From NCBI GenBank assembly GCA_002633005.1, contig NMRA01000066.1, forward strand, positions 337,144-401,143: a DNA stretch of 64,000 bases, read 5' to 3'. A program made the position numbers and the translations under genes. How positions within the stretch are numbered: position 1 is the stretch's first letter; every line of letters begins with the position of its first letter. The notes under the pieces were generated by a model that was given only the letters and a program-made list of their open reading frames with translations, did not search any database and was not told where the DNA came from. Of the stretch, positions 986 to 64,000 are shown piece by piece. The DNA is from Phoronis australis (taxonomy: Eukaryota; Animalia; Phoronida).

Positions 986-3900
986 CTGCAAGTGAAAAAA
1001 TACGAGACTGATATACTCACAAAAATACTATGTAAATTATTGGGGACAAATAAAACAAGAAGAATAATTTGTATTTTAAGTTGTATTGGGAATTTCAGGG
1101 TCACAGCTCTACAAATAAATATTTCACAGAAGGAACCAGATGGGTTCCTTAAATACAAGAGATAACACACACATTTAAATTAATTGACAAACTAGCTGTA
1201 CCGGTACTTAGCATAGCCTGGTACCAATGCAAACTTTCAAGGTTTGTTTTCAACTCACGTAACCAAAATGGCATACTTAAACTTGAGTGAATCAAGTTAG
1301 CGGCGGTGAAACTTCCTTTGAAATCGGTGTAGTCAATTCTTCTCAATATGAATCAAGCAAAAGCTTTCGAAGGTGGTGCAGCAAAATGTTCCAAGGATTA
1401 GCTATGACTTTAATGTACTTATTTTCGGCCTATATTACATTTCCAACTTCAATTCACTTTTCAAGCCGTGAAAGGCCGACAATAAGTACATTAAAGTCAT
1501 AGACAATCCTTGGAACACTATGCTGCACCACCCTCGAACCCCTTCCCCCCAAAAAACAGGTGGCGCTTCGAAACATGACGGGTGTGTTTTAGAATTCGAG
1601 AAGCCTGCAAAAATATCAGCTCTAAAACCTAACCATGGAAGCGAACACGTTCATGCAAGGCATAAAATCTCCACTCCAGGACTCGGATATAGAGGGACTG
1701 TTCATAGAAATGTTCAAACGTACTCTCAAGGAACGGGACGAAACTGACAGTCTAAATAGAAAGGTAAGTGAACTGGATGAACGTTTAGACGACAGCGAGC
1801 AATATTCCAGACGAAACTGCCTGGTAATACACGGTGTAGAGGAAAATAAGGGGGAGGTTACTGATGAGCTAGTAATAAACATAGCCAAGGAGTTGGAAGT
1901 TGACCTGCCCACGACGGAATTGGACCGTACCCACAGGTTGGGTGCTTTTAACAGAGATGCCAGGGGTAAACCTAGACCGATCATCGCTAAGTTTATTTAT
2001 CGTAACCAAGGGCGTGTCTCGATGTGAAAAATACATATCAATGAAAATCTCACAAAGAGGAAAGCTGCTATTTTTGTACAGTGTCGCAGATTAGTGAAAC
2101 GGACAACCCTGTTTATGGAAATCCGTAACACCACTACAGACTACTCAAAAAGAAAGAAGAAAAAACACATCAATTATGAACGTAATTTAGAAGAAATCAT
2201 TAATAGGCTGGTAAGCAAAGGCAACCCGACTGAAGGTGATCTAACAACTTTAGAAGAAAAAAGACTAATTTACAAGAATTAAGAACAGACACGTTGAAGG
2301 GCTATGTTGTCCGATCAAGAGCAAACTAGATTGAGAGTGGAGAACGCCCTACCAAATATTTTTGCAACTTAGAATGAAGGAACTTTTTTAGTAAGTGGAT
2401 ACATGCTATAGAAACAGAAGAAGGAAAAACTATTACGGATCAAAAGGAAATTTTATGGGAGACAATGATTTTTTTACAAAAACTTATATTCTTCGAGGTC
2501 TGAGAGTGAAGAAATGTTAAATAGTGTACTCGGACTTTGCCAGTTCCCGGTACTTTCGAAGTTGGAGGCAATCCAATTAGAAAATGAAATTAATATTGAT
2601 GAATTATTTGAGGTTTTAAAAATACAAAAAACGAGAAAAGTCCAGCCTTGGATGGCTTTACGATGGAATTTTTGAAGTTCTTTTGGGAAGAAATAAAATA
2701 TTTTGCATTGTGGCACATTAAATGTAGTTTTGAAAAAGCACAAATGTCTACAAATCAACGGACTGCGATTATTACATATATTCCAAAACCAGACAAGCTG
2801 AAACAGTTTCTGAAAAACTGGCGACCAATAACTTTATTGAATAGTTTATACAAACTGGCTTCGGGATGCGTTTAAAAGTTCTAGACAAGCTGATTGCAAA
2901 CACCCAAACTGGATTTATCATAAAATATTTTCATATATCGAATAATGTTGGCTTTGAAATTGAAATTATCCAGGACTTCGAATACAAAGTCCCAGGAAAC
3001 ACTATCAAAAGCCTTTTCAAAATCTATCAACACAAGTAGTCCTGAAATGTTGTGTTTGTCTGTATAATTAATAATATCATAAATTAGTCCTGTGTTCTCA
3101 ACCATAAATCTTCCTTATAATAAGCCAATTGCCCGTGTCATGCAAAATGGATTTCTGTCAGATAACATCATACTGGAACACGGATGTCGATCAGGTGATC
3201 CTTTCTCCCCTTGTATTTTTATATTGTGTGCTGAAATTTTGTAGATATTGATTAAACATGATCCTGAAGTGAAAGGTTTTAAAATCGACGACGAAGACTT
3301 CATTATAACACAATACGCAGATGACACAACTTTCACATTAGACGGAACTCCAAGATCTTTGGCAGCATTTATGAACAACCTAGAGTTCTGTGCAGGGATG
3401 TCGGGGCTGAACACGAAAGTAGTGTGGATTGGAAGTAGAACATTCTCTCAAAAACTGTTTCACCGCACGCTTTGGAAACTAAACTGGGGTAACGTTGGTT
3501 TTAAGCTTCTGAGAATTAATTTCAGTGTGAACTTGGAAACTATGTCCAAAGATAACGTTGATGCAAAAATAATGGAAATGAAGAAGCTGATTAATATATG
3601 GTCTCGTAGAGAGCTGACTATCTTTGGAAAGGTCACAGTATAAGAAAACACTTGGGTTTCCAAAAATTATACATCTGCAAACGCTGCTCTTAGTCCCAAT
3701 GATATCACTTTTGGTGATATTGAAACTTTTTAAATTCATTTGGTACGGAAAACCTGATAAAATAAAAAGAGTACTCATTAAATCCATACAAGGGGGTGGA
3801 TTGAGGATGATTGATGTCAGAAATGTAATATGTCTTTAAAAATTTCATGAATTAGAAGATTCTTTTTAACAACATCTCCATGGACTTATTCGTTGCAAAA

Positions 3901-6900
3901 AGACATCGGGCTTACTAGAGATGGAATATTGAGTTATGGAGACTACATGTTAACTAGATCGGATAACTGTAACTCTTTTTGGAAAGAATGCTCTGCAGTA
4001 TTGGAGCAATTCTTAGTTCGCAAACAAACTATTTCAGGTCACGAAGATGCGATGTCAATTAATGTGTAGTCCAGCAGTAGTATTGCGGTGGAATACAGTC
4101 CTTGTATTTATGAGTCATTCGTTGAAAAAGGTATATATTTGTGAACGATTTTTAGACTGGAATGGTAACTTCTACACCGTCCTTTGAAAGTTTCAGACGA
4201 TTCATCAGATTAATGTCAGCTTTCTCAAATATTAGTCAAATGTTAGTGCAATAAAAATATATGAATACGTTTTCCAAAAACATAAAACTAAAAACAGGTA
4301 GAAGGACCACTTGTACCTTTTTCTCTAAAAATATCAATTTGACGAAAAACAGATGTCAGACATAATACCATCGGCACAAAAGAAATTCGAAGTTTTGGGA
4401 TTTACGCTATCAGAGAAGATGTGGAATTTCTACTACAAACTTCCACATGAATGTACGAATGACAAAAGCTTACTTTTGTTTTAGTTTCGCTTACTGCACA
4501 GAATTCTACCTACTAATTATTTTTTAAATAAGATTAGACATGTGGACTCAAATGCTTGTACTTTTTGTAAATACTTTCCCGAAACTCTAGAACATTTATC
4601 CTTTGAATGTGAATATGTTAACTCTTTCTGCCATGCAGTACGTCTCTAGTTAATCACTGCAATGCAAGTAAATTTTGAAATAGACAAAACCACCATTGTA
4701 TTTGGTCTTCAAAATGAACAGAATATAATTTTGAATTGGTTCCTTTTACAAACCAAAATTTTCATTTTTAAAATGTCTTAACATTTTTTTTGAGGGAGTG
4801 TTTTAATGTAGAATTAAGTGCTTCGTTAAACACATGAAAATTTAATGAATACAAAATATGGAAAGATTGGAAATGAAGGGAAGCAAAGAGTTGACCAGAT
4901 GCCAGAACAGAAATTTAAGTAATACTGTTTAACTTGGAAGTAATAATGAAATGTTTTCTCGTCATTTTTGCACAGTTCTGTACGTTGTTGTGTTGTGTTG
5001 TGTGTATCTGTATATGTACCTGTCTTTTGTAATAAATGTAAAAAATATGATCATAATTGATGAACGTAAAGAAAGTGAAACATTGGGACGGTCCCGGACT
5101 ACATGGCGAAAGAACTACCCTTCGTCCCGCAGGTAGTAAGAAAGCGCATGCCTGGTTTTGACCCCGAATATCAGGCACCCTTTCACAGGTCATGTCGGAA
5201 ACCGCCGAGGAGTATGGCTGTGTAAATATTCCCAATTTCAAACCTTCAAAAGTACCGGAAATGAAAAGGGCGTCTTTAAGAAAGGGGATTCTGTTCGATT
5301 CAAAAATAATCTGACAAACGTGTTTCATCCACCACCTCCGAATTTCCTTGTCTTTGTTTGATATCGGGAAGGAGAAAACGAGAAAAACTTGACATCACGC
5401 ATTCAAAGATATTTGCCAAGTTTATCCAACTTTCTCCCGCCGAAGTTTCAGCCCACGGCACAGTAGTAATACTTTGTTGACATTTTATGTAAGGATAGAG
5501 TAATGCAGCCGAGCAAACCTTGTAAAGAATACGACAACAACAAAAAACAGGTGGAAATGCAATGTTGCAAGTTTTTTACTGATGTTGCTACATTATTGGT
5601 AAATACAGCGAGATTAAAGTGTCGCTGTGTAATCCGGGACGGCTGTATTAGTGCTTTATGCGGTTTTTACAAAACATAACTTCGTAAATATCACGTTACC
5701 CACTATCCCACGGTGACCTATTTACCATTTCCTGTCTTTTTGCCTCACTCATTCCACTTCATGGATGTAACCTGACTGGAATATCGACACTCGATGTCTT
5801 ATTGTTTATAACTGATGATGTCTAATGAACAGACGAAACGTTGAATCGATAAGAACTTGTTCATTTGTGCGGCGATTGTCCGTTTATTGATACTATTATG
5901 GCCGAAACTGATGTCGTGTACATAACTATTACTCACCCCACGCGAGTAGATATGCCTTCTTCATAAACCCCGGTATGTATGTAGCCATCACCTTGACGAA
6001 TCTAAGATACTGCAAGACCCCTTCGACCAACATCCAGGCGAAGGAGACGAGAATCAAGTAATGAAGAAGAACCGCCACAGCAATACAACCGCCTTTGTCT
6101 TTCACTTGTTCTACTCCACCTAAGAACAACACCACACTTAGCAAAAGGGCCAGTGATAGGTTGAAGATCGTCTGCTGCGAAGGACCTTTGCCAAGTGCTC
6201 TGAAACCTCTGCCGTAACTATGTTCTGTGCAGCAGCCACTGAAGAACCTGTGTAGAAATAGGTTTACTTTGCACAAATACTGAACCGTGAAGGTATTGAT
6301 TGCATGATTCCTAACTTCTCAAGCACACGCATTAAGTGTGTTATATTCCAGCCGAATCTCATCTCAGTGGCGTTTTTATTTGGGGAATACTCTGAACGCC
6401 CCCCTCCCCCAACTCAAAATCCTGGATCCGCCTCTGTATCTATCTAAACATACAGCGCATTACACTCTAAACTGAAAATTGACAATACTCAGCACCTGTT
6501 TCGAAATAATTTACAAATGAGATGGAGCTTTTATCATGATCAAATACCACTGTGGTCAAATCTTTGTCCAGAGTTACGGCTCCCAGTCGTTACTTCTCTC
6601 AGCTAGTAGAAGGTAGGTAGATCAAATTTCCGGTATACAACCAGGCAAAAAGATTTTCGAATTTGAAACAATAGACTGCCACCCCAGAATCTCTATTACC
6701 TAAATTTGGATTGATGAGCGAAGAAACGCCCATTGGCCATGTGCCAGGATACTCACCTGGATAGCAAGAACGTAACAATGGTGCAGAGAAGTCCCACAAT
6801 GGACAATGACAGACCAGCAATGCTGATGACGGACAGAGCGAGCTTGTTACCTTCATCCATATAATTCCCATACGTCCCGTGGTTGTTGTTAGCGGTTGTA

Positions 6901-9900
6901 CTATTTTTCCCCTGAGTCGTGTCCTCATCATGTACACCCTGACCTGGATCAATTGTTATCCCGTTTACATCTTGACCTTTATCAACGGTTGTTCCATCTA
7001 AACCATGAATGTTGCCAACACTTGACTCATTTTCATCCTGATCTTTGCCAACACCTGTCCCGTTTACATTCTGACCTTGGTCAACACCTGTTCCGTTTAC
7101 ATCCTGAACATTGCCAACACTTGTACCGTTTCCGTTCTGATCTATGTCAACACCTGTCCCGTTTACATTCTGACCTTGGTCAACACCTGCTCCGTTTACA
7201 TCCTGACCATTGCCAACACTTGTCCCGTTTCCGTTCTGATCTATGTCAACACCTGTCTCCTTTACATCCTGACCTTTGTCAACACTTGCCCCGTTTGCTT
7301 CTTGTTCTTCGTCATTAGGTGTAACTTGTTGATCCGGGTCTTGACCAATAGTTGACACTTGTTCAGCCAAATCATAACCAATAGTTGTCTGATGTTCAGC
7401 CGGACCTTCGTCAGTGGGCTTGTCGTCATCACTGGGTTTGTCTGGTTCATCCTCATCACGGTCAGCAGATGTCTCATAATAATTCTCAGCAATAAATGTA
7501 CTGTGCACATCCTAAGAAGCAACAAAATGGTGTCTTTCTGTAACTGTGCAGGCATTTCTCATCAAAAACTAGAACAGCAGTCGTCCAGTTGATACAAGTG
7601 GACCGATTGCGCACAATGGACTGGAATTCTCTAGATGTATCAAACACAGTTGATGAACCAAAGCAATTCACGTGAAAGGCTAACGCAAAGGCTATATACA
7701 TGTATAGGTTATCCCATATAGGCCCACACAGGAATACTACTGCCATATCCTATCGAGAATTCATTCGTTTGGGAATGTTCCAACTAGACCAAACGCTGGC
7801 TCATGTACATGTAGGATTCATAACAACCGCGAAACACCAAAAGCTACTTGGTACGCAAGGCCATGGTTCTAACAGAAGACCGTTGTGCTACTTTCTAATT
7901 TATGGTTTTAAAAAAGCATAGGACGATTCACTAAATAATGGAAACTTTTTTCCAAACTAACCACACGTAATGTTATGCGTGTCCACGTTGATGTAAACCT
8001 TTGCACACATTCTAAAAATCATTGAAAGAATTCGAAAATGAAAATTACTGGTTTTCAAACCAAACTGCATTGTTTTGATTGACGTTGGAAGGCCAATATG
8101 AATTTAGGTGTCAAATCCAACTGACAGATAAAAACATTACGCTCTTTTTCATCATCCGGGTGAAGTTTTCATACTTCAACATTATCGTAACTTAGTCTTT
8201 GTAATGTACTTCAATGCAAAATTCTGTTTGCCTAATGTTCTTACTTACCAGCAATAGCGCAAAATTTGTTAGGTGATCGCACATACAAACGTGTCGTAAA
8301 CCAACAGTACCGTTGGACCAACATCCTTCTTGACTGAAGTCTCCAAGTTGGTAGTCCCAATAGCCGCACACCGTGGTGACGTTGGTAGCGTTGTCCTGTG
8401 CATAAATTACCACGGCATTTTAACGCCTTCAAACGTTTATTTTGCTGTGACGATTGGCCATGATTTAGGTAAAAAGTGTCGTCGTGAACGCGACCTTCCT
8501 TCAATACCTCTTTTCACAGCTTTGCTGTTCTTGTAACGACAGACCAATACACTGTAGATCTATTGGTAATTCTAAATTTATGTTCGTTAATACAGAAATC
8601 CGTAAATTGTAGATTTTGTTGCTACGTCATTTTCTTTTAACATTATCCTTACCCTGATACTCACTCTTTTAACTGGAAGAAACGACGTTGTAAGAGGATC
8701 TTCAAGATTGAGCTGCATTGCCGATCTGGTGTTAATTTTGGCCGAGATGACTTTACTGTAGGTCTCCCATTTACGAACACTTGAGTAGTTAGCGGAGATT
8801 TGGAAACGAGTTTGGAACAGTTTCCAGTTGTTGTAAAGGATGAAGCTTGTCTGCTGGCCTAATGACCACTCTGAAATAATAAACAGAGATTACCAGCGAA
8901 TCGAGAGTCAATTTATTTACCAGCGGTAGTAATTCCTAATGTATAAGGCAACTTAAGGACTTGGTTACCAGCACTGCAAATATTCATTAAGGTTCTTAAA
9001 GTTCTAGAAAAATGTCGGCTTACTTTGGAACAGCATATCTCATAAATGGTTACTTGAAAAGGACTATATTAACCTTGATATGTTGGACAGCCGTGCCTTC
9101 CACAGGAAATTTGCTAAATTTATTCGTGAATTCTGGTGAACTTAAGTTGTAGACTGCAACGGTTTACCAGTTAAATTTATGATCCAAAATTTGCTGAAAT
9201 TAGTGTTTACGGTTGCATGAACTTCGAGCACTTTGATCTGATAGACATTTACACTACGCACAGTCACCAAAAATCACACCCCTCGGCCTGGCCGACATGT
9301 GCGAGTTTCTTACGAACAGTTCTCTCTTCATCAACAGTGCTCTCACAACAACGATCTTCAAAAGAAATAACTACTTTTCGAATACACTGGGGAAAATACT
9401 TAATGGCTATGAAAGCATCGAGAATATTGTCTTTGTTCCATTACCAACAAGTATCTTCAAGTTCTTTAAACTTGCATTCTTTCGATGGCGGTCAATGAAT
9501 GCTATTAATACAACCCCCATTTTGGCCGATTGTTCCACATGTCTTGATGCTGCTGTTCGTCACATGATGAATTTCCGAAGTTTTACGAACAATTTAAAAT
9601 GTCATCTACTTCCCTTAGTGAATAGCAGACAGCATTAGATTGATAAGGGGTTATTGCCTTCAATAGAGGACCCAGTCTGATAGGGGGTCCTGACACTCAA
9701 TTCCACCAACGATTGGCTCTCGAATATGGGCACTCTTTTAACATAAAGTTATCACAGAATAGGGAAAATCCATTTCAAAAGCGGATCTTTACTAAGAATA
9801 GGATGACAAGGGCATGAAAAAGTGGCCATGGAGGCCACCAATAGACCCCCCTCCCCCAAGGACTGGGGCTCCTAAAGGTGATAAAACTTGATGTCTGAAA

Positions 9901-12900
9901 TACAGGAAATGAGTAGCAATTGGTGCTATCACCTGAGGGCCCCTATACGACAGGTTACCAATGTCAAAAATAGAAGAAAGAGACCAACACAGAGAGTGCA
10001 CATAGAGAAATGCATTTGTCTTCCTAAATTTACATCTCTGAATCAGCAGTAAGACTATCTATACTGAAAAATGAACCCCACCCCCGCACACGCAAAAATG
10101 TCCTGGTCAGGGTCTCCAAAGGTTAATCCTGCAGTGACAGTTGACGCAAGCTCTCGTAAATTTCTTATCTTCTGCAACCTCCGCTCTCTTATTCTCCTCG
10201 GTCCTACGCCTAAGTCTGTCACCACGATTTCGAACCCGGACTTTTATTGCAACATTGTCACATTTTAAACAAGATTAATACTAAAGAAGGTTATTGAGGC
10301 AAGTCGCAAATTGTTTAATTATGGATGAACTTGCAGCACCACCTGTCGCAATTTGGACAAAGATGCGTGCATGCACGGAAAACGCACCTGCCAAGATTTC
10401 GTCGAGCTTCTGTCAAGATTTAGCCAAAATTAAAATTGGTTCTAGCCGATAGGAAATGGATACTACGTTTTTTGCATTAAAATTGCATCGAATTTTGACG
10501 CTGTCCATTTCATTTTGAAAACTACCTAACGCAAGCCGGCCTTGTTCTTCTTAGTCTTGTTAAGGGAAAGAGAACTTATAGTGTTATAAATGCTTGTCTT
10601 AAACCTTACGTACCTGGAACATAAACGTAAGACGACCAGCCAACCTCCGGCGCTAGGTATTCGTACGACGTGAAAGTATTGCAGAGTTCGCAAGTTTTCA
10701 ACGCTCTGTTAAAGTTGAAGCCGACGCACACTTCCGACGACATTGTGCTCTGTAGCTTGCCAGTACATTGAAACGCGCAATCACTGACATTTGTCGAAGC
10801 GACAGTAACCTTTTTACTAAAAAGTATTTTGGTATTTCTCGTCTCGTTAAATAGATGCAGTACACCTGCAAATCCAAATATAAAGTTTTAGCAAACAAGT
10901 GTAATAATTACCCTGGACTTGAGAGACGGGATTCAAACAATGATCGAAGACTCAAGTCGGTAATTTAATCAAAATGTGCTCTACAACAGGTCGAGTTTCA
11001 AGTTTTAACTCTTAAAAGAGTTAAGCAATTTGGGACCCCGTCGTACTTCAGCTGGCCTTGGGAATCGCTTCAGTCTTTAAGCAATTGAAAAGAATGTCAA
11101 GGCATTTAACTGTTGAAACTTTTATGTAGTTTTCTTCGTGCACAACTATTTTTTGTATTCACATTTCTCAAAAATGTATTCCTTGTTGATCAATTTTCAT
11201 TGAAACCGGGGCCTGGGGTCTAACCTTTGTACCCGAAATCGAATTTTCCATTTTTTTATTTTAATAAGAGCACTGTTTATCGACCTGTGCTATAGTATAC
11301 TAAGGTTTATCAAGTGAGTTTCTAGTTCAACTTCCAACCTGATAACCCCAAGGTTCGAGCTACAGACTACGGGGTAAAAGCTCGAGATTTCGAGTTCAGA
11401 CAAGAAATATCAAATCAAACCTTCGGTCATTAAGTGCAAGGTGTAATAAACCACAGTATACTACATCACAGAACAACAGATACGCATCGTGAGTTTGCAC
11501 AAAAATGGAGTGGAAATATCAAAAAAATTAGTTCAACTTCGAGTTCAAAGATTATAGACTCGGGGCCAACCAGTTCCCGTGAAATACTGAGAAATACACA
11601 CTTGAAGCAAGCCATTTAAGATACACTCAGCATATTGGCACTAAATGAGGCAGCTAACTGATAGCGCAGTTCTTTGTCTGGGCTATGCCCATGAAAGGAC
11701 TACCTGCACGCTGGCGAGTGTTGCAATGACGAATTAAAGCAAAGATAACGAACCTTTAGGGTCTACGAGAGACATGGGCAGCTTGATGGTCAAATCGGTT
11801 GAGTTAATGCTGCGATTGACTCCAACGTTATACAGGGGTTGCACGGACGTCTTTCTTATACCATCACTTGTTGCGTTGGTGAACAGTTGAATGCCACTGA
11901 CTTTGTTTGTTTCGTTCACGCCTACGTAAAACGTACCGATGGCAATATTGGGCAAAGTCTGCACAAAGCTAGAGCTAAGGTCGATGTGCACTCTTCCGGT
12001 AATTATCTCCATAGCTCTTGTCAATCTGAAAAGTTACGTGTAAAATTGTGGACGCCATTTGTACGACTCTCTGCTGCGATTGTTCTAGACAAGAGCTTTG
12101 ATTTACAAAGAAGCACTGAAGATGGTTGATAAGTTGTCACCAGGGCGCGCTACATGAACCAGATTTCCAGTCCATCTGCTGGGTCTATCCTTCCCGAAAT
12201 AGAAACGAACCTTACACGTTTCACAAAACAAATAAAATACGCGACAGAGCTCTTTTAATTCACTGTTGAAGCACCGCAGTTGTAACAATATCGGTCTTCT
12301 TCAGACTCTCCATACCGTAATGGGGGCAGTGTGGTCTCCAGTGATAGAGTCGACACCTTCCAAAGTGAAGATTACGGATAATAATCAATTTTACTCGTTA
12401 TCATTACTAATATCAATATCATAATCATTACCCTTATTTTTATTATTAACCATAATGCAGGAATTTTGCTAATCTCTATTCAAGCGTCCCCTGAAACACT
12501 GGAAGTCCGCTTTTGCAAACAATACCGTTCTAGGGATAGTCTACCTTGACGACGCTCCGTCGACCTCTTGAGAATTCGCAATTACTGAATCATTAGCGCG
12601 CATCACGTTGTCAAAGATATGTAGAACGTTTTTGACTACCTGCAAGAACACAAATTTGACTAAATATCACTACTAACAATATCACTTAACAGTCTGTTAT
12701 TCTTCTCAGTGCCACGCAAATAAATATAGATTATACCTCAATGTCAGCCTAGAATGGCCAATACAACCGTGTAAAAACCCATTTGGTTATCTCGCTAGTG
12801 AGTATTTTGTATCTTCAGACTTCTCCCGATGCAACTGATAACCTTCGGTCAAAATTGTAAAAATACAACTCACTTGTACGCATCAACATGTGATTATATC

Positions 12901-25000: not shown

Positions 25001-28000
25001 CTGAAATGATTAGCGATTACGCTTGTGAATTGTCGTTTTCCTGTTGACCTCTAGAAATGTGTAGTAATCAAAATGAAGTATTCCTTTGTTTGCATTTGAT
25101 TTGTTTGTGTGTGTAATTATTTTTAGAGCTTTCTTAAGAAGGCCTTTGAACAATTTTAAGTTTTGCGTTAACTTGTCCACAACAAAAGTTTCACATGCAA
25201 GAAAAGTATATAAAGAAACAACATTGTTAAAAACAATTTTAATTTTCCCACGCAATGGAGTCCATAATCAGGCATATCATGTCCAAAGGTAAAATAGACG
25301 GTCAGGCGGTTGGTTTCAGTTGTTTTCTCTCACCTGTAACAGAGTAGTCAGAGAAATATTTACAAATTATGAAAGAAAACACAAGAATACTTTAGTAAGG
25401 CAGAACATACTTGACGTTTCATCTTCGTGTTTATATGTAGAAACTAATAATATTTGTACCCAAGTCTTATTTAAAATCTTAATTAAACAATGTGAAACAG
25501 GCTAAAAGTGATTTAATAATGTGTATTTTTCACGGCACCTAAAATGTGCATCTGACCTCAACAAGTAAAATTCATTCTAGGTGTCAATTTTTAATCCAAT
25601 GCAATGCTGTGACGTTTACTGAATAGCTTATTCGTGTTAATTCGGTAACTAACCTGGTAGTCCTGGGGGTGGGGTCCGCTATAAAATAAGGAAACTCACT
25701 CGTCTAGTGGGTTTTATTCGACATAGCATAGCTTTGAAGAGAAACTGCTGTGAAAAAGTCACCCTTGACTTCTGAGCGTCACGCACCATACACTTCTTAC
25801 AATGGGCACATTCCCACCCCTGGAGGACAATGTATTAACATGTGCTGCTAGCCTACGCGGCATCCGAGTCCTGAGTGAGTTTCCGAAAAGAGTCACATAG
25901 TTCCATTCAATAAACCCGTTATTCAGTGGGGTAACTGGTGGTGATAACATCACTGAACAATGTCGATAGAAACTTGATTGCTAAAAACTTACCAAGTAAC
26001 GTTATGCAGTCTCCCAAAGGGGCTTCGGCATCCACACACTTTTGGTCAGTTGGTTGACCCTTTTGACCACAATGCTCCACGAATGTAGTAACCTTAGGTC
26101 TTTTGGTACATATAATTTGTGGCCACCTGTCGAAGACTTGCACCAGGGAAAATAGCAGTAATAGGGTTTTGCGCGACGACGTACTTTGATAACAATCCGT
26201 CTTTTTTACCAGCTGTTTACATGCAGACAGTGACGCATGTGCGATTCAATCACCACTAGTACAGCAGCGACACCGCGAGGAGAATTCTCCGAATAGTCCC
26301 ATTCATTCTGTCGCCCCGAAATGGACTGACTGTATCCACTGCAAGTCTATTCACTGAGAGAGACACCATTTTAGTTTGTGATTTAAGAAAAACACCGCGT
26401 TCAGCCCAAGAAGCAAATTTTTGATTTACACCAATTGCCACACTTTGTCTCAATTTGTTCTTTTCTCAAATGAGAAGTATTTTCTGAGTTTGCAAACATG
26501 ACAGATCCTTGAGACCAGGGTCGGCACATACATGTAGTTGACACGCAGTGACAGGTCACATGCTTGTTCCTTCCACGCACAGGAACCACATCCAGTCTAA
26601 ACAGGGGACAATCTGATATCAGTTTCACACCGTGTTAACGATGAGTAAATTAATGTTTACGGTAACCGGGTTTGTGGGAGATTGAATCCCGGAAAATATT
26701 TGCCACTATCATATATAATAAAAACCATATACTGTACATAACCTGTTTCATGTCTGCACAATCGAGGATAAATGGCAAACACGCACCACGGAAACATGTT
26801 GCCAGTGGGAGAGTTTCATATGGCAACTTGGCAGCGTGGGACCGGATAGGAAGCATTTTATAACTTTTGTTTAAAAACACATTCTGTGTAATCACATACA
26901 CTGACTGTAAAACGGTATTTTCACGAAGTCAAATTTTCCCCTAGGCGAAAACAAAATAACTTCTGGTTCAGCTAGGCGGCAATATAAGTCAATGGTCCCA
27001 CGTTGCTTCTTGAAAGTGTCCCATCGAACACATGCAGCACGATTTGAGGACTGAGGAAAACTATCGCTTTTCCAACTTTAATAATGTACATGTACTCGGC
27101 GGCCAACTTCAATTTCCTTACTGGTAACAGTCCGCAGAGCATTTCTAATTTTACACGTTCGCAGTGATCAAGACTAATCGAAGTTCAATATTTTCTCGTG
27201 TACATCTATATTTTCAGCAAACTTCATGAAGACTTTTTATAGTCTGCCTGTTCTATTATCGCCATAAACTGCTACATTTTTGCGTGAGCTTGCAAATAGG
27301 CGTGGTCCACCTGCCCGTTACCAGGGTTCAGGACAAGAATAATTTTTAGATGTTAACAACCTTCAGTGGATTGTGGACACCGGAAAAAGATCTAAGGTGA
27401 GCTAAAAGAACATGTGTCATCTAGCACTTGTTGCAAGACTCTGAAAAGGCGTCTACTGCATTTAATCCCTTTGAAGGCGAATTTAACCCACAAAAAATAC
27501 CACTCTCCGAGACATGAGGCGCATCGGCACCAGAGCTAAGATTCTTAAGTGTTACCTTAGATAGATTTCTGAGAGTGCCGGTAACGGATGACTCTTGTTC
27601 GTTGCAAGGAATCACACGGGGGCTGACCCACGATAGACCAATGGTAAAGTTCCCCACACACGTCAACTCACCCAAGGGTTGGCCAGCTAGAAAATACATC
27701 AATATCACAGCAATAATTCAAATGCACTAAAATCTTGTTGAGGAGGGATGTGAGCAAAAATAGATATACATGTACTGTGATGCTTCTGTGGCCTTTGCAT
27801 CCCTGTACACTATGGCCCATTGCTATCAGTGACGCATTTCATGAAAAGTGACAGAAATTTGGTCTTACGCTTCCACTTCGTAATTGTTGAAAAAATGTTT
27901 TTCCGAATAACGATGAGCGCATCACAGTCTAGAAATAATTTATAGAAATAATATCTGTAAGAAACAGTTAATATGTGTATGTTGAGAGACTTAGAAATTC

Positions 28001-53300: not shown

Positions 53301-54092
53301 AGTGACCAATTTGTTAAGATAATTTATGTTCATACCAAATGATTTGCATTGTCTTATTAAATTGAGAATGCGCAAATGAAGTACTAAATTTACAAACAAC
53401 CCTGGGTCCTCGTGTGGGCTGGAAACTATCCGAGAACCAGTTACAATCTAGCAAAAGTCTTGTTTTGCAAGACTAATTTTATGTTAATGAGTATGGTAAT
53501 ATTTCATTGTTACCCCAATGTAAAAAGGCACACTTTTTATTATTTGTTTATTTCACTGTCAAATAATGATTGCGTAATATTTGGAATTACTAGGGTTATG
53601 TCCTCACTTGTTTTTATGTGTATCTTTGTTGTCTTTAAAACCGCAATTTATTTACAAATTGTTTCTCTTCCTGATTATACTTGTACATACAGTTCTCCAG
53701 GAAATCAGTAGGTGGCGTTTGCTACTAATTTAAATATTCAAGGTTTAAATCATGCATTGTTAATTTAATTGCTGACTCGGATGTATGACATATTTCAGAA
53801 ATACATGGATGGCGGGTTCACCAACAATTTGCCCACTTGTTTCTCTGATGGTAGAACGATAAGTCTTTCACCCTTCTGTGGGCGACAAGACATCAGTCCA
53901 AGAGATCCTGATGGATTGGGGATGTTCGTCACAGCCAAGAATCAACACTTCCAAATAAACTTCAAGAATATAGTCCGAGGCACGCACGCTTTGTTCCCTT
54001 CGTCTTCCAATGACCTTGAACTTTACTATCAAAAAGGAGGTCATGATGCGGTGAGATTTTTAAAAACGCATGGTTGGATTGAGGACAGGTGA
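47115..54092 (+). CDS. PNPLA4: Patatin-like phospholipase domain-containing protein 4-like (259 aa, 4 coding exons)
   Basis: Exons 47115-47303, 49254-49484, 50588-50653, 53799-54092, all phase 0. Motifs NLSFAGCGFLAVYHLGA, GASGG nucleophile elbow, YMDGG, SPFCGRQDISP, ALFP. Short patatin-only protein ending FLKTHGWIEDR, as in PNPLA4/GS2. Confidence 0.85.
48923..49099. repeat. 35-bp minisatellite, 5 copies (TGTTGCATTATTGCACCTCATATGTCTTACCTTGC)
   Basis: Head-to-tail copies with no spacers. Confidence 0.95.
49254..49484 (+). CDS. PNPLA4: PNPLA4-like exon 2
   Basis: FGALTPG..LPQNAHELANDRLFISVTN..ISTYNSRSEVIQ. Confidence 0.88.
49955..50038. repeat. 27-bp tandem repeat, 3 copies
   Basis: GTCCCA(G/T)GTGTACTGCACTATACTGAG. 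Confidence 0.9.
50086..50265. repeat. ~57-bp tandem repeat, 3 copies
   Basis: ACATTACTGTACCTTGTTATGAAGGACAGTAATAAACAAATAAATAATGATAATAAG. Confidence 0.9.
50588..50653 (+). CDS. PNPLA4: PNPLA4-like exon 3
   Basis: WLLCSCYIPVYAGIKAPQVNGK; TTTAG acceptor, GTAACT donor. Confidence 0.85.
53799..54092 (+). CDS. PNPLA4: PNPLA4-like exon 4 (DGG catalytic Asp, stop)
   Basis: KYMDGGFTNNLP..; TTTCAG acceptor. Confidence 0.88.
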   Translation, partial: KYMDGGFTNNLPTCFSDGRTISLSPFCGRQDISPRDPDGLGMFVTAKNQHFQINFKNIVRGTHALFPSSSNDLELYYQKGGHDAVRFLKTHGWIEDR

Positions 54093-55301: not shown

Positions 55302-57537
55302 CACTGCCTGGTGTTTCTGTGATATTCTTTGATACATTATCGAAACCGGTTACATTAAATGTCTATGTGGACAGCAAAAACAATATCAATGAAAAGCAAA
55401 CCCGAGAAGTCGATGTCATTCCGGTCACCAGTAGATCCCTTTAAAATGTCACGCCAAAACTGTTGAATTTCCATTGGCGCTACAAATCAATGGCTTTCAG
55501 TTGAGGTAAAATAAGAAGTGTGTGAATTCTGCTATCGCACTTCCTACAGAGATACTTATTCACAAATTTCGTTTTTTAATAACAAGCAAGACTCAGTTAC
55601 CACACTGTGTCACAAAATATTTGTATTCATTAATTAACATTGATTTACATATTTCCAAGCCTATGTTACGTGACGGCATTCCAAACGCTTTCGTTGCCTG
55701 CGCACAGAAAAATAATGATTACAATAATGTTTCCCAATTGATCTAAGTAACTACTGTGTAACGTAAAACACTATCCTATAAACAATAGTAACTATATAGC
55801 TAACCACACAAGTCTTACTAATATTCTCTCTGTGAAATTAACATTAAAAACCAGTGCCCTGTTTATTGCCTCTTCACAACTGTGACCTCAATATAAAGAA
55901 TAGGTTTTAACCAGTAGGAACACATCGTGACAGTTTTTGTAATAATACAGCTACCGTGGTGGTTTTAATGACTACAATGCCATCTCCCCATCTCGATTAT
56001 CCGCACTTGGGTTAAAATTAGAAGGTATTAAAAGAGGTGTACGGAAGGTGCCGCTTGTATGGGTGACTTACGACCATTTTTTACAATAGGGTGCTCTTTT
56101 GATAAAATTTCTAACGAAAAGGTACCTTCCCAACACAATTTCGTAGAAAAGGGTTCACTTTTGGAGCTCGAATTTTCATCAATAAAGTTCTTTTGTTCAG
56201 CTACACAACTCTACTGATGGGTTTTCAATATTCTCTAGTGTGTCGAGGATTGTGTTTAAAATTTGTTGCAAAAGATGCACTCGTTATTGAAAACATCGTC
56301 TTTGCGGGTTTATGTGGGTTATAAATTCTGCTGTCCAAAAATCCCTTCTAAATGGTTTGTATGTGGAATTATAGGGGCCGTACGAAATGTTAACTTCTTT
56401 ATATGAGCCCCTTTCTATAGTGTCCTCTCTCTCAGTAGGTGGGTATCTTTGATTTTCCAGCTGCCCCCCAAAAATATAGTGGAGTATCCTCGTTGTGTCA
56501 AAACTCACCACTTACAGTGCTTGCTCATGCTTACATAGATTCGGATATGTCCTCAAAGTTAAGCTGTCTAGTAAAATTATCCGAACTGATCAACTTCATT
56601 GAAATTATTGCATTTTTTGGTGTTAAACAGACCAAAAATCCATAACAAGACATTTCCGAAGGATTCGGAACGTCCGTGCTCCAAAGGTGTCGGGCGCCAC
56701 TTTACTGGAGCAGGCCGCGGGTCCATTAGTACAGAAGTTCTGACTGATCAAAAGGCAAGGCTCACAAGCCCAGTAAACACAGTTCATTGATTTGCAAACA
56801 AGCAGTTCACCAGACATGTCTGTGAATCGTGGTAGACGGTCAGTGAGCCGTGCTTTCAACGTGAAGAACTGTGTTGCATGAATGCGACAACAATGTTGTA
56901 AATGGAACTGACGTGCTCCAGTTAGTATTGTGATTTCGTTTCCAAAAAAGAGGCCAGGGAGTTTTTGAGGAAAGTGCTAGGGCTCTTTCAGAAGCTTGTT
57001 TTGCTGAACGGAATTGTTGCAAGGGGCACTTTGCACGTACGCCGGGTTTGCATACACTTCAATTGTCGTACTTTAACAAGGAAGTGCTCGGAGCCTCGAT
57101 CAGTGCGATTGACAAGTGATGGCCCAGGAGAGGGAATTTTTTTCAAGCTCGGTTTCCAAAACTCATGTGGACTCTTTCGTGGTAAGGACTCCTTCGGAAA
57201 TCCCCGGTAACCAAAATTACGCAATAATTACCCCTACAAAATGGACTTCGAATTTTTTCTAATGATAGTCTTGTGTATCCGTTGTAACGGAGAACATGCA
57301 CTAAAGTGCACTACGAATCCCTGAAAAATCGCAACCCGACACCCCACTGAATTTTAGACAGCTTGAATACAATTCCATACTGTTTTTAACTTTCAACTAC
57401 ACTGTAAATGTTGGGACCAATTCGTTATGCTTGATGCGCAGACGTCTTGATTTCGCAAATGAGCAGCATGTACAGCCAGATGAACAGAGCGACCAAAGAT
57501 GCCGCTGGTAAGGGAGGTTACGAGATTGTGTCACGTA

Positions 57538-57800
57538 TTAAAACGATATAACAACTTCTCCCTTTGTCGCTTTTTTCAGCAGAACATCAGTTGTCATGCC
57601 GCCGAGAATGTCTAGTTGGGAAATACTCATCCCGAATTCCTTGTTCACCCAGTTCACCATGTCGACCGCCATTAGGGAATCTACACCGTAGTCGGTCAGT
57701 GGTCGACTTTTGTCGATGGCCTCCTTCGATATGTATAACAAATCACTCAATTTATTGATGAATTGCTCCTCTAGGTCTTCCTGGGACACCTTGGGGGCTT
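57538..57800 (-). CDS. PKS terminal exon: acyl carrier protein
   Basis: TTCTTACAG acceptor; PLTDYGVDSLMAVDMVNWVNKEFG phosphopantetheine motif; stop codon. Confidence 0.85.
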
Positions 57801-60800
57801 CTGTAAGAACAGTGCGTTTTATGCGTTCATACACGTTATTAGAAAATCTATTATCACAGACCTATACCAGGAGAGTTTCCCACAAGTTTTTTTCAGATTA
57901 AGTGCGCTAACAAAGTATGTCGAAACGTCGGGCCACGACGTCCTTATGTTGTCCTTGCAACAACATTGATTATATTGTCTCTGTCTATCAACTACTGACG
58001 CGTTCGCGGCAACGCCTCTGGGCACAGGCATGCATGCCGTTCTACATCGAATCCCAGGCATAACGCCTCTGTATTCCAACGATAATGAATAACTACTGTA
58101 TGTCGTTATATGGTCTCCAGTAACAGCGAACCATTTTCAAACTAATACTTGCTGGTTATGACTTTTAAGGATACATGTACACATAATGCAGATGCGTGTA
58201 GGCACATATATACGGTTTCAATAAAAAGGGGTTTACAGATACTTTTTCCTCAAAAATACATGTTCGCGATATCGCATTACAGCTTACCTACTTCGATGTT
58301 TACGAGAAGCAACTGTTACATAAACAACGTGGTTCATATCGTGTTTCCTGAAAAATGCGTCGATGCAAATGTACTTACCCGACACGGTGTTTTCTGTAGT
58401 CGCAAGATGGCGGAACTTCAGCATGTCCTTGTGAAGAAACAGCACTTGGTTCCAGATCTAAAACGTTACGTTACATCATGACAATCACGGTCAGTTTAGA
58501 TGTAGGCTTATTACCTTTAAAAAGGTGCATATGACCTGATGTCAACGTGTGCAGGCTACATAACCGCACCCGTTGCACGAAACACCAGTGAGAATGAAAC
58601 TCATTATAGCCCTGCTATGTGAAGGACGTTTTCAAGTCTACCAGAAAGTCGGGAAGCTTTATTAAATTTGTTTCTATGCGCTACAGGTAACTGATGACTG
58701 TCATCCAGGACTCAGTCGTGTATAGACAACCGTCGATATCGGTATCTGAGGTCGTGGTACCAGAAATATTCTTTGCTTCAAATCCCAATATCTCCAGGTA
58801 AACCACTCCTTTCTTGTTAACGAGCTGGACGTCTGCTTTAAGTCCTCCGTACCAGTGATCGGTAATTTTTGCATATGCTATCAACGCCTCGTTCGTTGGC
58901 AGCTTACGGGCGTATAGATTAAGTTTGTTGATCTTTGTAGGTAGGAATACAGTCGATCCTATACCCACAGCTGCAAGCGCCACCTGGAAGCAACCATCTA
59001 ATGTTGGTATGTGAATGTATTCTTCTGCTTTGGCGTTTTTCAAGAAACCTATTGCTTCCCCTTCGGAAACCACGATACCTTTAATCACTTGGAATTGGGG
59101 ACCATATTGGAGACCGAGGGACTTCATGTTCAAGTACAGTGACTGTGAATCAATTTCAATGAATGTTTGGTTCTTACATATTGTTTCGATATCCAAATTT
59201 TGTGGCCTTGTCGGGCAGGCTGTAACCTGTGCCTCGGCATGCAGACCCTGTGGCGTGAACAGTTTGACAGTTGAGCCGTTCCTTGTGAACGCTATCCTTG
59301 ACTTTTCTTTCTCGCCAAGGACAAGAACCTGTTTGAACTGAATATGTTGCAGACTTGATTTGTCGTTGTTCTCAATGCACATTTGAAGTACAAACTCTAT
59401 GTAACCGGCTCCTGGGAAGACAATGGAGCCGTCAACAACATGGTCAGCTAAGTATGGAAACGTGTCTATACCAATACACCCATTTTGCCCTTTAAATGTT
59501 CGATCGAACAAACCAAGTCGATTTTTCTTCATGAATTCAGATTCTGTTTGGAATTTCGTATGATCCCAGGCGTAAGTGGGAGCCTCCGCCCATTGAGAGT
59601 TATCATGATACACATTCGACCAGTTGATATTCACGCCATTGCCATATGCCGTAGCCAGTGAGCGAAGGACAGAAATTCGGTCATCTTTGAGACGCTGGCA
59701 AGACGGTATTAGTAGCGGGCTCGCAGTGTTGAAGTTGTTTACTGTTTGTGCCACAGATGACAGCAATGTCGGAGATGCACTATATTCCAGGAATATCGTA
59801 ATTTCCTCTGTTTCCAAAATGGAACTCGTTGCAGACAAGAAGTCTACGGGCATACGGATATTGTCCCACCAGTAATGTACGTCTAGACTACCGGTGACTT
59901 TACCTCCTGTCACTGAGGAATAAAATGAACAACTGGTTTTAGAGCTTGGGTTAATAACCGCTGACTTAAGAAACTCGTTTTTCATGGGTTCCATATGTGG
60001 CGTGTGAAATGCACACTGAACTCGAAGTTTCTTCGCTATGTTTGGCTTGTTATCAACAAGGTCTTGTACAAGCTTGGCATCGCCAGCTATTGTTACCGAG
60101 TTTGGACTGTTTATGCAAGAGACAAACAGGTCATTCTGAGCAGCACAGTAGTCCTGTGCATCATCAGGTGAAGCGCGATATGCAGCCATTGCCCCTTTGC
60201 CAATGAATTTGGCTTGCAAACGACTGCGGTGGTAAATGACAGCCACAGCGTCTTCTAAGCTCAAGGCTTCACTGGCAACGGCAGCGGCAATCTCGCCTAA
60301 GCTATGGCCGACAACTACATCCGGCCGGACTCCCCAGGACAGCCAGAGTGCATGAATAGCTACTTGGAAGAACAAAATTGAGGGCTGGGAAACTTCCACT
60401 TGACTTATAACAGACTCAGACGCCATATTTCCATAGTTGTCGTTTGTGAAGACCCCATGTGTGCGTATTAGGGAGTATCCACTCAAAGCACAAAATAATT
60501 TGTCGCACCGTAAAATTTGGTTTCGAAACACGGGCTCGGTTTTGAAAAGATGACGCCCCATATCACACCACTGCTGACCCTGTCCTGGAAACACTCCACA
60601 AATTCGGATGGTTCTGTTCTCGTTCGCGGTCCCAGTGATAACATGAGAAGTCGATGTGAGCAGATGTCGGTATTCTGTGGCTAACTGTCGGAAATTGTAC
60701 CCTGAATCGGCAAGGAACGCTGCTCTTTTATTGTAGTGTCGTCTTTTTGTAGCGATGAAACCAACAACACTTTCAGCATCCACGTCAGAGGAGAATTTCG

Positions 60801-62171
60801 CCCATTTGGAAATTAGTGACAAAAGTGACGTGTCGGTTTTTGCCGATAATGGAATAATTATTGGAATCCCTGTCTCTGGATTTCCTCCAAATGTCCAACC
60901 ACATCCTCTTTGGCGCGGCTTTGCTGGTAAAGGTACATTTTCGAATATCATATGGGCAAGCGCACCACCGAAGCCGAATGAGTTAACCCCAACAACATTT
61001 TTCTTCTCGCTTGCAAGTGAGTCCACTCGTTCTTGAACGGTTAACTTCAAACTTTCAAAATCAATGTCAGAGTTAGGCTTTCTGTAGTTTGCTGTTGGAC
61101 AAAGCTGACCATTATGTAGTACCAGAGAAGCTTTGATGATGCTGACAATTCCTGCAGCGCATTCCAAGTGCCCAAAGTGGCCTTTGACCGACCCAATTCT
61201 TATCTGCTTCCGTTTAGGAGATTTGAAAGCTTTACCAATCGCTTCGGCTTCAATGGTGTCCCCAACTGGAGTGCCAGTTCCATGAGCTTCTACGTAGTCA
61301 ACGCTGGACATAGGAACGCTGAATTTTGAATATGCCGATCTAATGAGTTGTTCTTGGGCTGTGGCTGACGGCATCGTTATGCTTTGGTTGTGTCCATTGT
61401 CGCCTATGACAGAACCAGAAATAACGGAGTATATGTGGTTTCCATCTGCAACCGCTGTGTGGAGAGGCTTCAGAATGATACTCGCCCACCCCTCGCCTCG
61501 AACATAGCCATTGGCAGATTCGTCAAATGGACAACATTTCCCTTCAGGAGAGAGAACTCCTAGTTGACTAAAGCCGACTGTTACCTCAGGAAGAAGGAGT
61601 ATATTACTGCCACATGTAACGGCCATGTCACATTCTCCGTTCCATAAGGCACGGCATGCCAGGTGGCTTGAGGTCATTGAGGACGCACACGCCGTGTCGA
61701 TTGCTAGACTTGGACCGTTGAGGTCGAAAACGTAAGAAATCCTATTGGCAGCCACACAGTGTGAAACACCAGTGTGTAAGTAAGAATTGGCAAGATGTCT
61801 GTCACCTGAAAGGAGGACGGTGAAATCAACCATGCCGATGCCCACATAAACGCCGCATCTTTCTTTGCGGTTTCCATAAATGATGCCGGCATCCTCGAAC
61901 GCCTGGTGTGTAACCTCTAAAAGATGGCGCTGTTGAGGATCCATCATGGCGGCCTCTCGAGGAGAAATTTTGAAAAAGGCGTTGTCAAAACCATGAACGT
62001 CCGATACGAAACCAGACCTTTTAGTGACGTGTGTACCAGATTTATTATCGCTGCTATAGTAAACATCTAAAGACCAGCGGTCTTTGGGAATCTCAGTTAG
62101 GACGTCTTGCTTTTGGGATATAACATTCCAAAAGTCTTCGGTGGAGTTGACGTCTCCTGGTAGACGGCACC
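57538..62171 (-). CDS. Type I (animal-type) polyketide synthase: KS-AT-DH ... ACP; MT/ER/KR not found; first exon probably outside the window
   Basis: KS DTACASS / EAHGTGT / GHFGHLE; AT GHSLGE and CAFH; DH LADHVVDGSIVFPGAGY and LDGCFQ; ACP YGVDSL. The link between DH and ACP is unresolved. Confidence 0.8.
58379..58457 (-). CDS. PKS penultimate exon (IWNQVLFLHKDMLKFRHLATTENTVS), post-KR linker-like
   Basis: TTTTAG acceptor, GTAAGT donor; phase 1 matches the ACP exon. Confidence 0.55.
58681..62171 (-). CDS. PKS large exon: KS-AT-DH
   Basis: ~1160 uninterrupted codons after an ATTTTACAG acceptor (GCRLPG..). Confidence 0.92.
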
Positions 62172-64000
62172 CTGTAAAATATATAAATTTGTTCTCGCAT
62201 GTGATAACAGTAGTTTTCAAAATAAACTTTTCAAAATCAATGTACGACAAATTCTTGCGGCCTAACACCGCCTGATTTTCCTAACTGAGTTCCACCTCGT
62301 GATAAAAATTCCTGTTGGTCTTGTTTATATGCGTTTCCAAAAATCTTTTAAATACAATTATTTTTACAATCACGATTTAGCACAGTTTGAGTTTCGTCAG
62401 TCGAAAGGCATCAACAAAATGTTAACATTCCGTTACGTTTAGCCCTGTTTGTCACGTTGCCTCATTGTACAATAAATAGTTAAACGTGTTTTTCTAAAGT
62501 GGGCGGGATTTCCGCTGAAGCCTCATTACGTATGACGGCAGTTCAGTGAGTTCCCACAATGCATGAGTCAGCTGTCACTCAGTACTGTGCCCATTTTAGT
62601 TGGTAGTGGACCACCAAAAATGAAAATTAAATTTAAAAAAATTCGTATTAAACTTAAATGCTTTAACATCCGTTTGATGAAGTTTTTAACTACATGTAAA
62701 TGAAGCGAAATTGGTATATTGTTTGGGTGCAACGATTTTTCTGATAGAGGGAGCTGTGCTGCCGGTCGGACCCAATGCAATGTCTTTCTAATCCTAGTGC
62801 TTACGTCGACTTGATTTTGATGTGATGAAACCTAGCTTTTCCCCAAGAGAAAAGTTTCCATCCCCTCCACTTTCTTGATCGGCATAGAACCACCAGCAAA
62901 GCTCTGTATTTTGTGTGCCGTTCGAAGTCATACACACCTGATGAAGGTTGCATTAAAGCTCGTCAATGGTTTCTTTGTTGATCTAATCCAGATTGAGACA
63001 GTAGACTGCATATTTTAAACCTGGTTTTACTAAACCCTCTCGCTTGTTAAACCAGGCTTTCAGGCTTTTTGAAAACGCTGATGAAATTCAAGTCGGGTCT
63101 AAAATTAGACCAGGTTTAAGAAAATCTGTTTTATTAAACCACCTCCATGAAATCGGCTGACATGGCTCGTTATCAGCAGCTGTAACTCCGGTCGTAACAA
63201 CACCCCAATCTAAAATTTTTCCTGGCAAACAATTACATGTAATTAACGTGGTTTAGGAAGGTGGGCTTTAACATGTCACGTTTAGTACGTTAGTAGCTCT
63301 TACAAAATATGCAACGTCGCAGTAGCGTGCCTAAGACTACACTCTTTCACAGTGCTACAAAAGGTAGCACTGTGGAATGTTGTTCATCATGGCTTCTCAT
63401 TGGTTAAAGTAGTGAAACCTACGTCATAACATTCAGTCAGTGTCATTGGTTGAAATCTGGGAAACCTCTTTCAGTTTACTGTTACGTAGTATGCCAACCA
63501 CTTTTGACTTGAATAGTTGCAATTAATTAAAACGGGCAGTGATCGAAGTAAACGAAATCAAGAGAAGGCCTATCCCGTGACTAAGCCCAAACAAGTACAC
63601 TGCATTGAAGGCGTGTGCAAGTGGTGGCGATGGGATCGATGAACTTCCGACCAAGCATGCGCATTGGTGCCCAAACACGGAATTCGTTGTGTCGTTCATC
63701 ATGTTTCCACATTGCCACTTTTCAGTATAGGTGGCGCTGTGATATAGGGTAGCCTAAGACCTAGAGCTTCTACTGAGCATAAAAAGGGACTCTTACAGTG
63801 GCGGATCTAGGATACCATAAGGGGGCCCAACATGTGTAGTTGCCTCGGTGAAACTGGCAAAGCGCCAGTGAATGTGAGCACGCCGCCCGAAGTGCGCCGG
63901 GGATGTGGTTCTCCTCAGTGTTCAGAGACTCTGTGGACTAAAAATAAAACGGGAACACGATTCCGCCACGGCCTGGGCTCTGAGCCCCCCCCCCCCCCCC

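What the first reader, a model, noticed from the sequence alone, without database searches (positions are those of the whole stretch)
57538..62171. Animal type I PKS apparently reduced to KS-AT-DH-ACP (no MT/ER/KR/TE)
Seen: all KS, AT, DH and ACP catalytic motifs are intact, and the KS-AT-DH frame is unbroken for ~1160 codons. Only ~880 bp separate the DH end (..GCLYTTESWMTVISYL*) from the ACP exon, holding one 79-nt exon that resembles a post-KR linker, so there is no room for reductive domains. The large exon has no strong donor; a weak phase-0 GTCATC after WMT would join in frame. Established: animal FAS and PKS normally carry (MT)-ER-KR between DH and ACP, whereas non-reducing fungal PKSs use a DH-fold product-template domain to make aromatic polyketides. 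Inference: either a functional non-reducing-type animal PKS (pigment or aromatic product), a split enzyme using trans partners, or a recent deletion allele or misassembly.
Basis: partly seen in the sequence, partly recalled or inferred. Interest (0 to 1): 0.7.

Follow-up and report, generated by a model that had tools for sequence, protein, structure and literature searches.

The report
Deletion allele of ordinary animal PKS
The gene looks short because the assembly shows a version lacking about 4 kb, while DNA from the same sample also holds a longer version that carries the gene on in frame, so this is likely a broken allele of an ordinary animal polyketide synthase and not a new enzyme design.

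Summary
The sequence is as described: intact KS-AT-DH frame, stop at 58683-58681, a 79-nt post-KR exon, an ACP exon, and no MT/ER/KR in the window. Contigs of two DNA runs of one sample fork at exactly 58712. Flanks are 46x. A 59-bp arm equal to the window junction is 18x. A long arm (contigs of 3782 and 381 bp, 22-28x) adds at least about 4.07 kb. Its first letters, read by eye, continue the frame as WQSPGACLPP, the family's post-DH motif. Relatives need 1110-1131 codons here. All 32 ACP-bearing relatives counted keep KR. So the window is a real, roughly half-frequency deletion version of a full KS-AT-DH-MT-ER-KR-ACP animal PKS. The deletion likely took the exon's natural donor too, leaving nine foreign codons and a stop, so it is most likely a null. 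RNA is too sparse to test splicing. The only two own reads at the site fit the long version. Aromatic-forming animal PKSs are already known and keep the full scaffold with an inactive KR. Low interest.

The parts
58712..62171 (-). Surviving 5' part of the family's giant exon: KS (about 62171-61084), AT (about 60594-59656), DH (about 59472-58759), up to the break
   Evidence: Pfam, translation, motifs; 42-49% identity to full-length animal PKSs
58712..58712 (.). Deletion breakpoint; this one base is shared by both sides. At least about 4.07 kb present in the other version of the locus is missing here
   Evidence: Contig fork at 58712 in DNA runs X1 and X4, short arm 17.7x/2.3x, long arm 22.3-28.1x/2.8-5.4x, flanks 46x/8x; arithmetic
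58458..58711 (-). 254-bp remnant, inferred to be the 3' end of the intron that followed KR; gives nine foreign codons, TAG at 58683-58681, weak GT at 58698 and an AATAAA at 58663-58658
   Evidence: Sequence; donor lists; no match to the post-DH profile; AATAAA
58379..58457 (-). 79-nt exon coding the stretch between KR and ACP
   Evidence: AG before, GTAAGT after; matches relatives about 30 residues before their ACP
57801..58378 (-). Last intron (GT-AG, phase 1)
   Evidence: splice not seen in RNA (too few reads)
57538..57800 (-). ACP exon with GVDSL and stop; no TE, as in the relatives
   Evidence: Pfam PP-binding 4.5e-12; 40-58% identity in the 23 of 26 relatives with an ACP match

Best explanation
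The window shows a version of an animal type I polyketide synthase gene that lacks at least about 4 kb which other DNA molecules of the same sample carry at base 58712, so it is most likely one allele of a heterozygous deletion that would knock the gene out. The long version likely encodes the usual KS-AT-DH-MT-ER-KR-ACP iterative enzyme, which would extend malonyl units into a polyketide whose reduction level depends on KR and ER sites that could not be read. The deletion begins ten or so codons after DH and ends inside the intron behind KR, joined over one shared base, which fits end-joining repair (inferred). It would remove MT, ER, KR and the giant exon's natural donor. Transcripts of the short version would run into intron sequence and stop after nine foreign codons; any stronger donor further on leaves that stop well upstream of a junction, which should trigger nonsense-mediated decay (rule recalled). 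The catalytic motifs are intact probably because the deletion is young.
For: SHOWN: in X1 and X4 alike, two flank contigs meet at 58712 (5039 bp at 45.9x and 3814 bp at 46.1x in X1). A 59-bp contig equals the window junction (17.7x). A 3782-bp contig (22.3x) leaves the exon at 58712 and a 381-bp contig (28.1x) rejoins at 58712. Short-arm share is 0.39-0.44 in X1 and 0.30-0.45 in X4; arm sums are 40.0 and 45.8 against flanks of 46. SHOWN by eye: the loose end continues the frame as WQSPGACLPP. Hand-scored on the profile it gives about 19 bits; the best of 74,484 stop-free 10-mers of the window is 15.6; relatives score 5.7-30.0; the window's own read-through scores -11.4. SHOWN: 15 of 16 relatives with both anchors have 1110-1131 residues (3.33-3.39 kb) between them, which fits in the 3752 new letters. 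SHOWN: 32 of 32 motif-selected relatives with ACP keep KR, 31 also MT and ER. Ten with KR and no ACP, from unnamed assemblies, run into a Val right at the place where the small exon begins, as a read-through GT donor would give (inferred). INFERRED: the two own RNA reads at the site in X5, another sample, are only partly laid and their bases in the junction bin total 86 = 2 x 43, as if both break at 58712.
Against: Only 30 letters at each end of the long arm were seen; that it is an unbroken MT-ER-KR frame is inferred. The two long-arm contigs are not shown to join. X1 and X4 are one sample and may be the source of the assembly, so they are one individual or pool. No genome-wide depth was available, so alleles cannot be told from two near-identical copies. 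In X4 the upstream arm sum (5.1) falls short of the flank (8.1). RNA shows no splice joint anywhere in the gene, not even the normal last one, so 'null' is untested. An AATAAA 18 nt after the stop could let a truncated mRNA survive. The RNA break place is deduced from bin depth, and 2 x 34 bases in the lower bin would fit a break at the other end as well.
Confidence: 0.87

Rival explanations
1. Two near-identical copies of the gene (a very recent duplication), one whole and one with the deletion, collapse into the same flank contigs.
For: The same fork and the same depth ratios would result. The family is often multi-copy: several Ptychodera, Patiria and Branchiostoma copies. The window holds another, older duplication.
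Against: Flanks of 5.0 and 3.8 kb are single contigs with at most 4 other letters in the 1373 bp and none in the 728 bp compared, including introns; allelic likeness is the simpler reading. The short copy would still be a broken gene.
Confidence: 0.07
2. The short version is spliced from the weak GT at 58698 to the 58457 exon and makes a working KS-AT-DH-ACP, non-reducing synthase.
For: The phase fits and all four domains keep their catalytic residues. Echinoderm relatives make aromatic products without an active KR (PMC11414698, passages).
Against: The donor matches 2 of 7 variable positions and lies in former intron; stronger donors lie behind the stop. No relative with ACP and without KR among 32. 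No such joint in three RNA runs, though depth is too low to test. Known aromatic-forming animal PKSs keep the MT-ER-KR scaffold.
Confidence: 0.03
3. The short junction is an assembly or library artefact and only the long form exists.
For: The runs that hold the junction may be the ones the assembly was made from. The two RNA reads of another sample fit the long form.
Against: The junction is its own contig with 29 letters on either side of the shared base, in two runs, at 30-45% of local depth; there is one shared base and no repeat to collapse.
Confidence: 0.02
4. The short form is ancestral and the long arm is a later insertion such as a transposon.
For: Most of the long arm was not read, and repeats are common in this region.
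Against: The long arm starts with the family's conserved motif in frame and has the size of the missing domains; the short form ends in a stop without a good donor; no target-site duplication beyond one base.
Confidence: 0.01

Closest known systems
Canonical animal PKS clade (SpPks1/CrPKS-type, KS-AT-DH-cMT-ER-KR-ACP, no TE); nearest named hits are Branchiostoma, Ptychodera, Glandiceps, Owenia, Gigantopelta and echinoderm proteins of about 2400 aa
   Same: 42-49% identity over KS-AT-DH; same post-DH motif, post-KR stretch and terminal ACP without TE; falls inside the 43-row animal group against 4 bacterial rows (SH-aLRT 100, quick tree); one giant exon with few introns, as described for mollusc PKS genes (PMC10764717, passage)
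   Different: The window's version lacks MT-ER-KR through a deletion. Its branch is long (0.83) and unresolved within the clade and is not inside the echinoderm group, so orthology to SpPks1 and the product are open.
Echinoderm aromatic PKSs SpPks1 and CrPKS (PMC11414698, passages read)
   Same: Functionally non-reducing animal PKSs already exist, with neither PT nor TE
   Different: They keep all seven domains and carry an inactive KR; domains are not deleted
Fungal non-reducing PKS (SAT-KS-AT-PT-ACP-TE; layout recalled, PT and TE role as in PMC11414698)
   Same: No reductive domains; a double-hot-dog domain between AT and ACP
   Different: The hot-dog domain here is a DH with His and Asp motifs, there is no TE, the weak SAT hit lies inside AT and under its cut-off, and the layout is an allele-level deletion
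Loss-of-function PKS alleles in parrots (PMC11739604, abstract) and hemizygous structural variants in mussels (PMC7653742, abstract)
   Same: Null alleles of animal PKS genes segregate in living animals; large variants present on one haplotype are common in some marine invertebrates
   Different: The parrot variants are point changes tied to a colour; here it is a 4-kb deletion with no phenotype known, and the animal group was not determined

Membership tests
Canonical animal type I PKS | KS-AT groups with animal PKSs | tested here: met
   inside the animal group, SH-aLRT 100; quick tree only, 47 rows, 2 bacterial rows left out for short alignment; no FAS, AFPK or fungal rows were included
Canonical animal type I PKS | KS, AT, DH and ACP with catalytic residues | tested here: met
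Canonical animal type I PKS | MT-ER-KR between DH and ACP | tested here: inconclusive
   Absent from the window's version. The long version starts with the right motif and has the right size but its body was not read
Canonical animal type I PKS | Complete KS start (IAIVGI-like strand) in an upstream exon | tested here: inconclusive
   Not in 62172-64000; may lie beyond the window; no genome held
Non-reducing PKS (fungal type) | SAT, PT and TE/R domains | tested here: not met
   Pfam gives PS-DH and PKS_DH_N; SAT 17 bits under the cut-off 22.8 and inside AT; nothing after ACP
Non-reducing PKS (fungal type) | One transcript linking KS-AT-hot-dog to ACP in frame | tested here: inconclusive
   No joint in X5-X7; depth too low even for the normal last intron
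Non-reducing PKS (any) | Aromatic product from malonyl-CoA | not testable with these tools
   Needs expression and LC-MS
Heterozygous deletion allele | Both long and short forms in one sample at about half depth, forking at one base | tested here: met
   tables 2, 7, 8
Heterozygous deletion allele | Flank depth equals the diploid single-copy depth; forms segregate | not tested
   No genome-wide depth in hand; both read-laying runs were used
Echinoderm pigment PKS (SpPks1 orthologue) | Inside the echinoderm group; KR lacking the catalytic Tyr | tested here: inconclusive
   Outside the 21-row echinoderm group (95) in the quick tree, on a long branch; KR not readable

The most novel reading that the evidence does not exclude
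The deletion allele is alive: either the weak donor at 58698 yields a natural KS-AT-DH-ACP minimal synthase, or the AATAAA 18 nt behind the new stop yields a stable stand-alone KS-AT-DH protein that pairs with full-length subunits and changes the polyketide made. This would be a reducing-to-non-reducing switch caught as a polymorphism.
Probability: 0.04. Interest if true: 0.65.

Novelty: new member of a known kind. Interest (0 to 1): 0.1.

Why it matters
As it stands it matters little: it is one more animal PKS gene with a likely null allele, and a clear case of a haploid assembly showing the shorter of two versions and so suggesting a domain layout that is not the gene's. It warns against reading PKS architectures from one assembly. 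If the allele is common, homozygotes would be a natural knockout to link this PKS to a pigment or metabolite. Only the unlikely living-allele case would be of wider interest.

Tried and rejected
No whole genome is held, so paralogues and the first exon could not be searched. The search of 50% representatives was filled by large multi-module proteins of 32-39% identity and gave nothing useful. A search with the neighbouring exon to place the animal group gave one unnamed hit; the group stays undetermined. No RNA holder listed by index; X8 shows no depth in 56641-61875; neither is evidence on expression. No splice joints were listed; depth is too low to count this for or against. Depth at 60131-60479 and at 57550-57759 is mostly reads of a paralogue (many other letters), so it was not counted as expression of this locus. 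The careful tree did not finish; the quick tree is reported. Earlier findings: none for this genome. Paper searches, listings only: 'polyketide synthase + animal + KS-AT-DH-ACP' gave 5 papers, all on fungi by title; 'polyketide synthase, metazoan, domain loss, ketoreductase, pseudogene' (4 of 5 terms) gave 4, none on this layout by title or abstract start; 'animal PKS + deletion + heterozygous + polyketide synthase' gave 0. No supplements were opened; those of PMC10764717 list mollusc PKS layouts and could hold a KR-less animal PKS. No folding or complex job was run, since neither bears on the verdict.

Full report
Observation. The gene lies on the minus strand. An open frame from the acceptor at 62171 gives 1163 codons with KS, AT and DH, all catalytic motifs present, and ends at TAG 58683-58681. 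A 79-nt exon (58457-58379) and an ACP exon (57800-57538) follow with matching phases. tblastn with 14 relatives finds no MT, ER or KR in the window. The first coding exon is not within the window's last 1.8 kb, and no genome is held to look further.

Family. The nearest named proteins are animal PKSs of about 2400 aa from lancelets, acorn worms, echinoderms, an annelid, a gastropod and a coral, 42-49% identical over KS-AT-DH in the 25 of 26 tested that cover KS. A quick tree of KS-AT (47 rows; two bacterial rows dropped for short alignment; no FAS, AFPK or fungal rows) puts the protein inside the animal group at SH-aLRT 100, on a long, unresolved branch outside the echinoderm group. Of the 240 proteins from the two searches, 47 carry the post-KS GWxF motif, 46 reach the end of DH, 32 have an ACP, and all 32 keep KR; 31 keep MT and ER too, the exception being a myxalamid-type protein. 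The motif filter leaves out some true relatives.

Where homology ends. Relatives read C-[LI]-Y-T-T-[QE]-W-Q-P... after DH. The window follows them to YTTE (58712) and then reads nine unrelated residues and stops. The small exon matches the stretch just before the ACP in 16 of 26 relatives; in 15 of these 16 the gap between the two anchors is 1110-1131 residues, and 779 in one shorter gene model. Ten relatives from unnamed assemblies have KR but no ACP and run into a Val at the place where the small exon begins. I infer that the family's giant exon runs from KS to the end of KR and closes with a phase-0 GT. A passage in PMC10764717 reports few introns in mollusc PKS genes.

The decisive result. 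Contigs of DNA runs X1 and X4, one sample that may be the source of the assembly, were laid on 57340-59439. Both fork at 58712. In X1 the flanks are 5039 bp at 45.9x and 3814 bp at 46.1x. A 59-bp contig equal to the window's junction has 17.7x. A 3782-bp contig at 22.3x shares its last 30 letters with 58712-58741 and then leaves. A 381-bp contig at 28.1x shares its first 30 letters with 58683-58712. X4 shows the same five pieces at 8.3, 8.1, 2.3, 2.8 (611 bp) and 5.4x, with the same loose-end letters. The short arm is 39-44% of the total in X1 and 30-45% in X4; the new sequence is at least about 4073 letters. Read by eye on the minus strand, the loose end continues the frame as WQSPGACLPP. Scored by hand on a profile from 32 relatives this gives about 19 bits, above the best of 74,484 stop-free 10-mers from the window (15.6) and within the relatives' leave-one-out range (5.7-30.0); the profile rows were picked with Gln at one position, which lifts that column, but 27 of 28 rows have it without that rule. 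The 3752 new letters hold the 3.33-3.39 kb needed with 360-420 to spare. The two sides share one base.

So both forms exist as DNA. The long form is ancestral by motif and size, and the assembly shows the short one. Limits: the body of the long arm and the link between its two contigs were not seen, and without genome-wide depth a heterozygote cannot be told from a pool of animals or from two near-identical copies.

RNA (18-19% of each of three runs from other samples). The libraries are stranded, as the neighbouring plus-strand exon shows. The PKS gets only sense reads of its own: depth up to about 1.7 in X5 outside the paralogue bins, and less in X6 and X7. No joint is listed anywhere in the gene, so splicing of the short form is untested, and these animals may not carry it. 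Two X5 reads at the site are only partly laid; their 86 bases in the junction bin equal 2 x 43, the count up to 58712, which fits unspliced RNA of the long form (inferred from bin depth; a break at the other end is not excluded). About 150 X5 reads under 90% alike cover the ACP, and 27-30 the AT, so a paralogous synthase is expressed much more strongly there.

Mechanism. Inferred: a double-strand break repaired by end joining removed MT-ER-KR, the donor and most of the next intron. The short allele would give KS-AT-DH plus nine foreign residues. Use of the stronger donors at 58569, 58535 or 58514 would leave the stop more than 100 nt before a junction, a likely decay signal (recalled rule). 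The phase-0 GT at 58698 matches 2 of 7 variable positions. An AATAAA at 58663 leaves room for a truncated mRNA. Intact motifs and at most four other letters in 2.1 kb between versions fit a young deletion. The long allele likely works as an iterative malonyl-extending PKS; its product cannot be named without the KR and ER sites.

Comparison. Aromatic-forming animal PKSs are known: SpPks1 and CrPKS keep KS-AT-DH-cMT-ER-KR-ACP with an inactive KR and have no PT or TE (PMC11414698, passages). Null PKS alleles occur in parrots (PMC11739604, abstract), and hemizygous variants are widespread in mussels (PMC7653742, abstract). Three searches (listings only) showed no paper on a KR-less animal PKS or such a deletion; supplements were not opened.

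Verdict. Observation confirmed; the exciting reading is not supported. A likely heterozygous deletion allele, probably null, of an ordinary animal PKS (0.87). Interest 0.1. The living-allele case has about 0.04.

Noticed in passing
window 57593-57720 and 60220-60241, RNA runs X5-X7: Reads of a paralogous synthase, under 90% alike: about 150 on the ACP in X5 (5 in X7) and 27-30 on the AT in X5 (15-18 in X6). A second PKS is expressed far more than this locus and may cover its function.
   Followed up: partly
window 57650: The X4 contig (8.3x) has another letter that would turn the ACP Trp, present in 25 of 25 relatives, into Ser; the X1 contig has the window's letter. A heterozygous site or an error; not phased. 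Other differing sites: 57915 (X4) and 58664-58665 (X1 and two X5 reads).
   Followed up: partly
window 58663-58658, minus strand: AATAAA 18 nt behind the premature stop; could be chance, could let a truncated mRNA be polyadenylated.
   Followed up: no
window 53769-54092, plus strand: Last exon of a patatin-like gene facing the PKS; 62% identical to an unnamed protein with PF01734; expressed in all three RNA runs, with a 3' region to about 54900.
   Followed up: partly
window 62207-62340 and 63270-63950: Dispersed repeats in the first PKS intron: reads on both strands that fit only in part. The first coding exon must lie beyond them or be missing.
   Followed up: partly
window 13196-16909 against 23476-26303: Older direct duplication, 81-86% identical over about 2.9 kb.
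   Followed up: no
window 5929-7511 and 12815-13183, minus strand: Exons that look like an adhesion-type GPCR (recalled likeness), one with a 33-nt-based tandem repeat of Gly/Asn/Asp/Gln-rich units.
   Followed up: no
window 17484-18731, plus strand: 415-codon open frame with an NCEHF motif as in LRAT/NlpC-P60-type acyltransferases (recalled, not scanned).
   Followed up: no
window 1626-3835, plus strand: Fragments that look like a decayed LINE element (ORF1-like and reverse-transcriptase-like pieces; recalled likeness).
   Followed up: no
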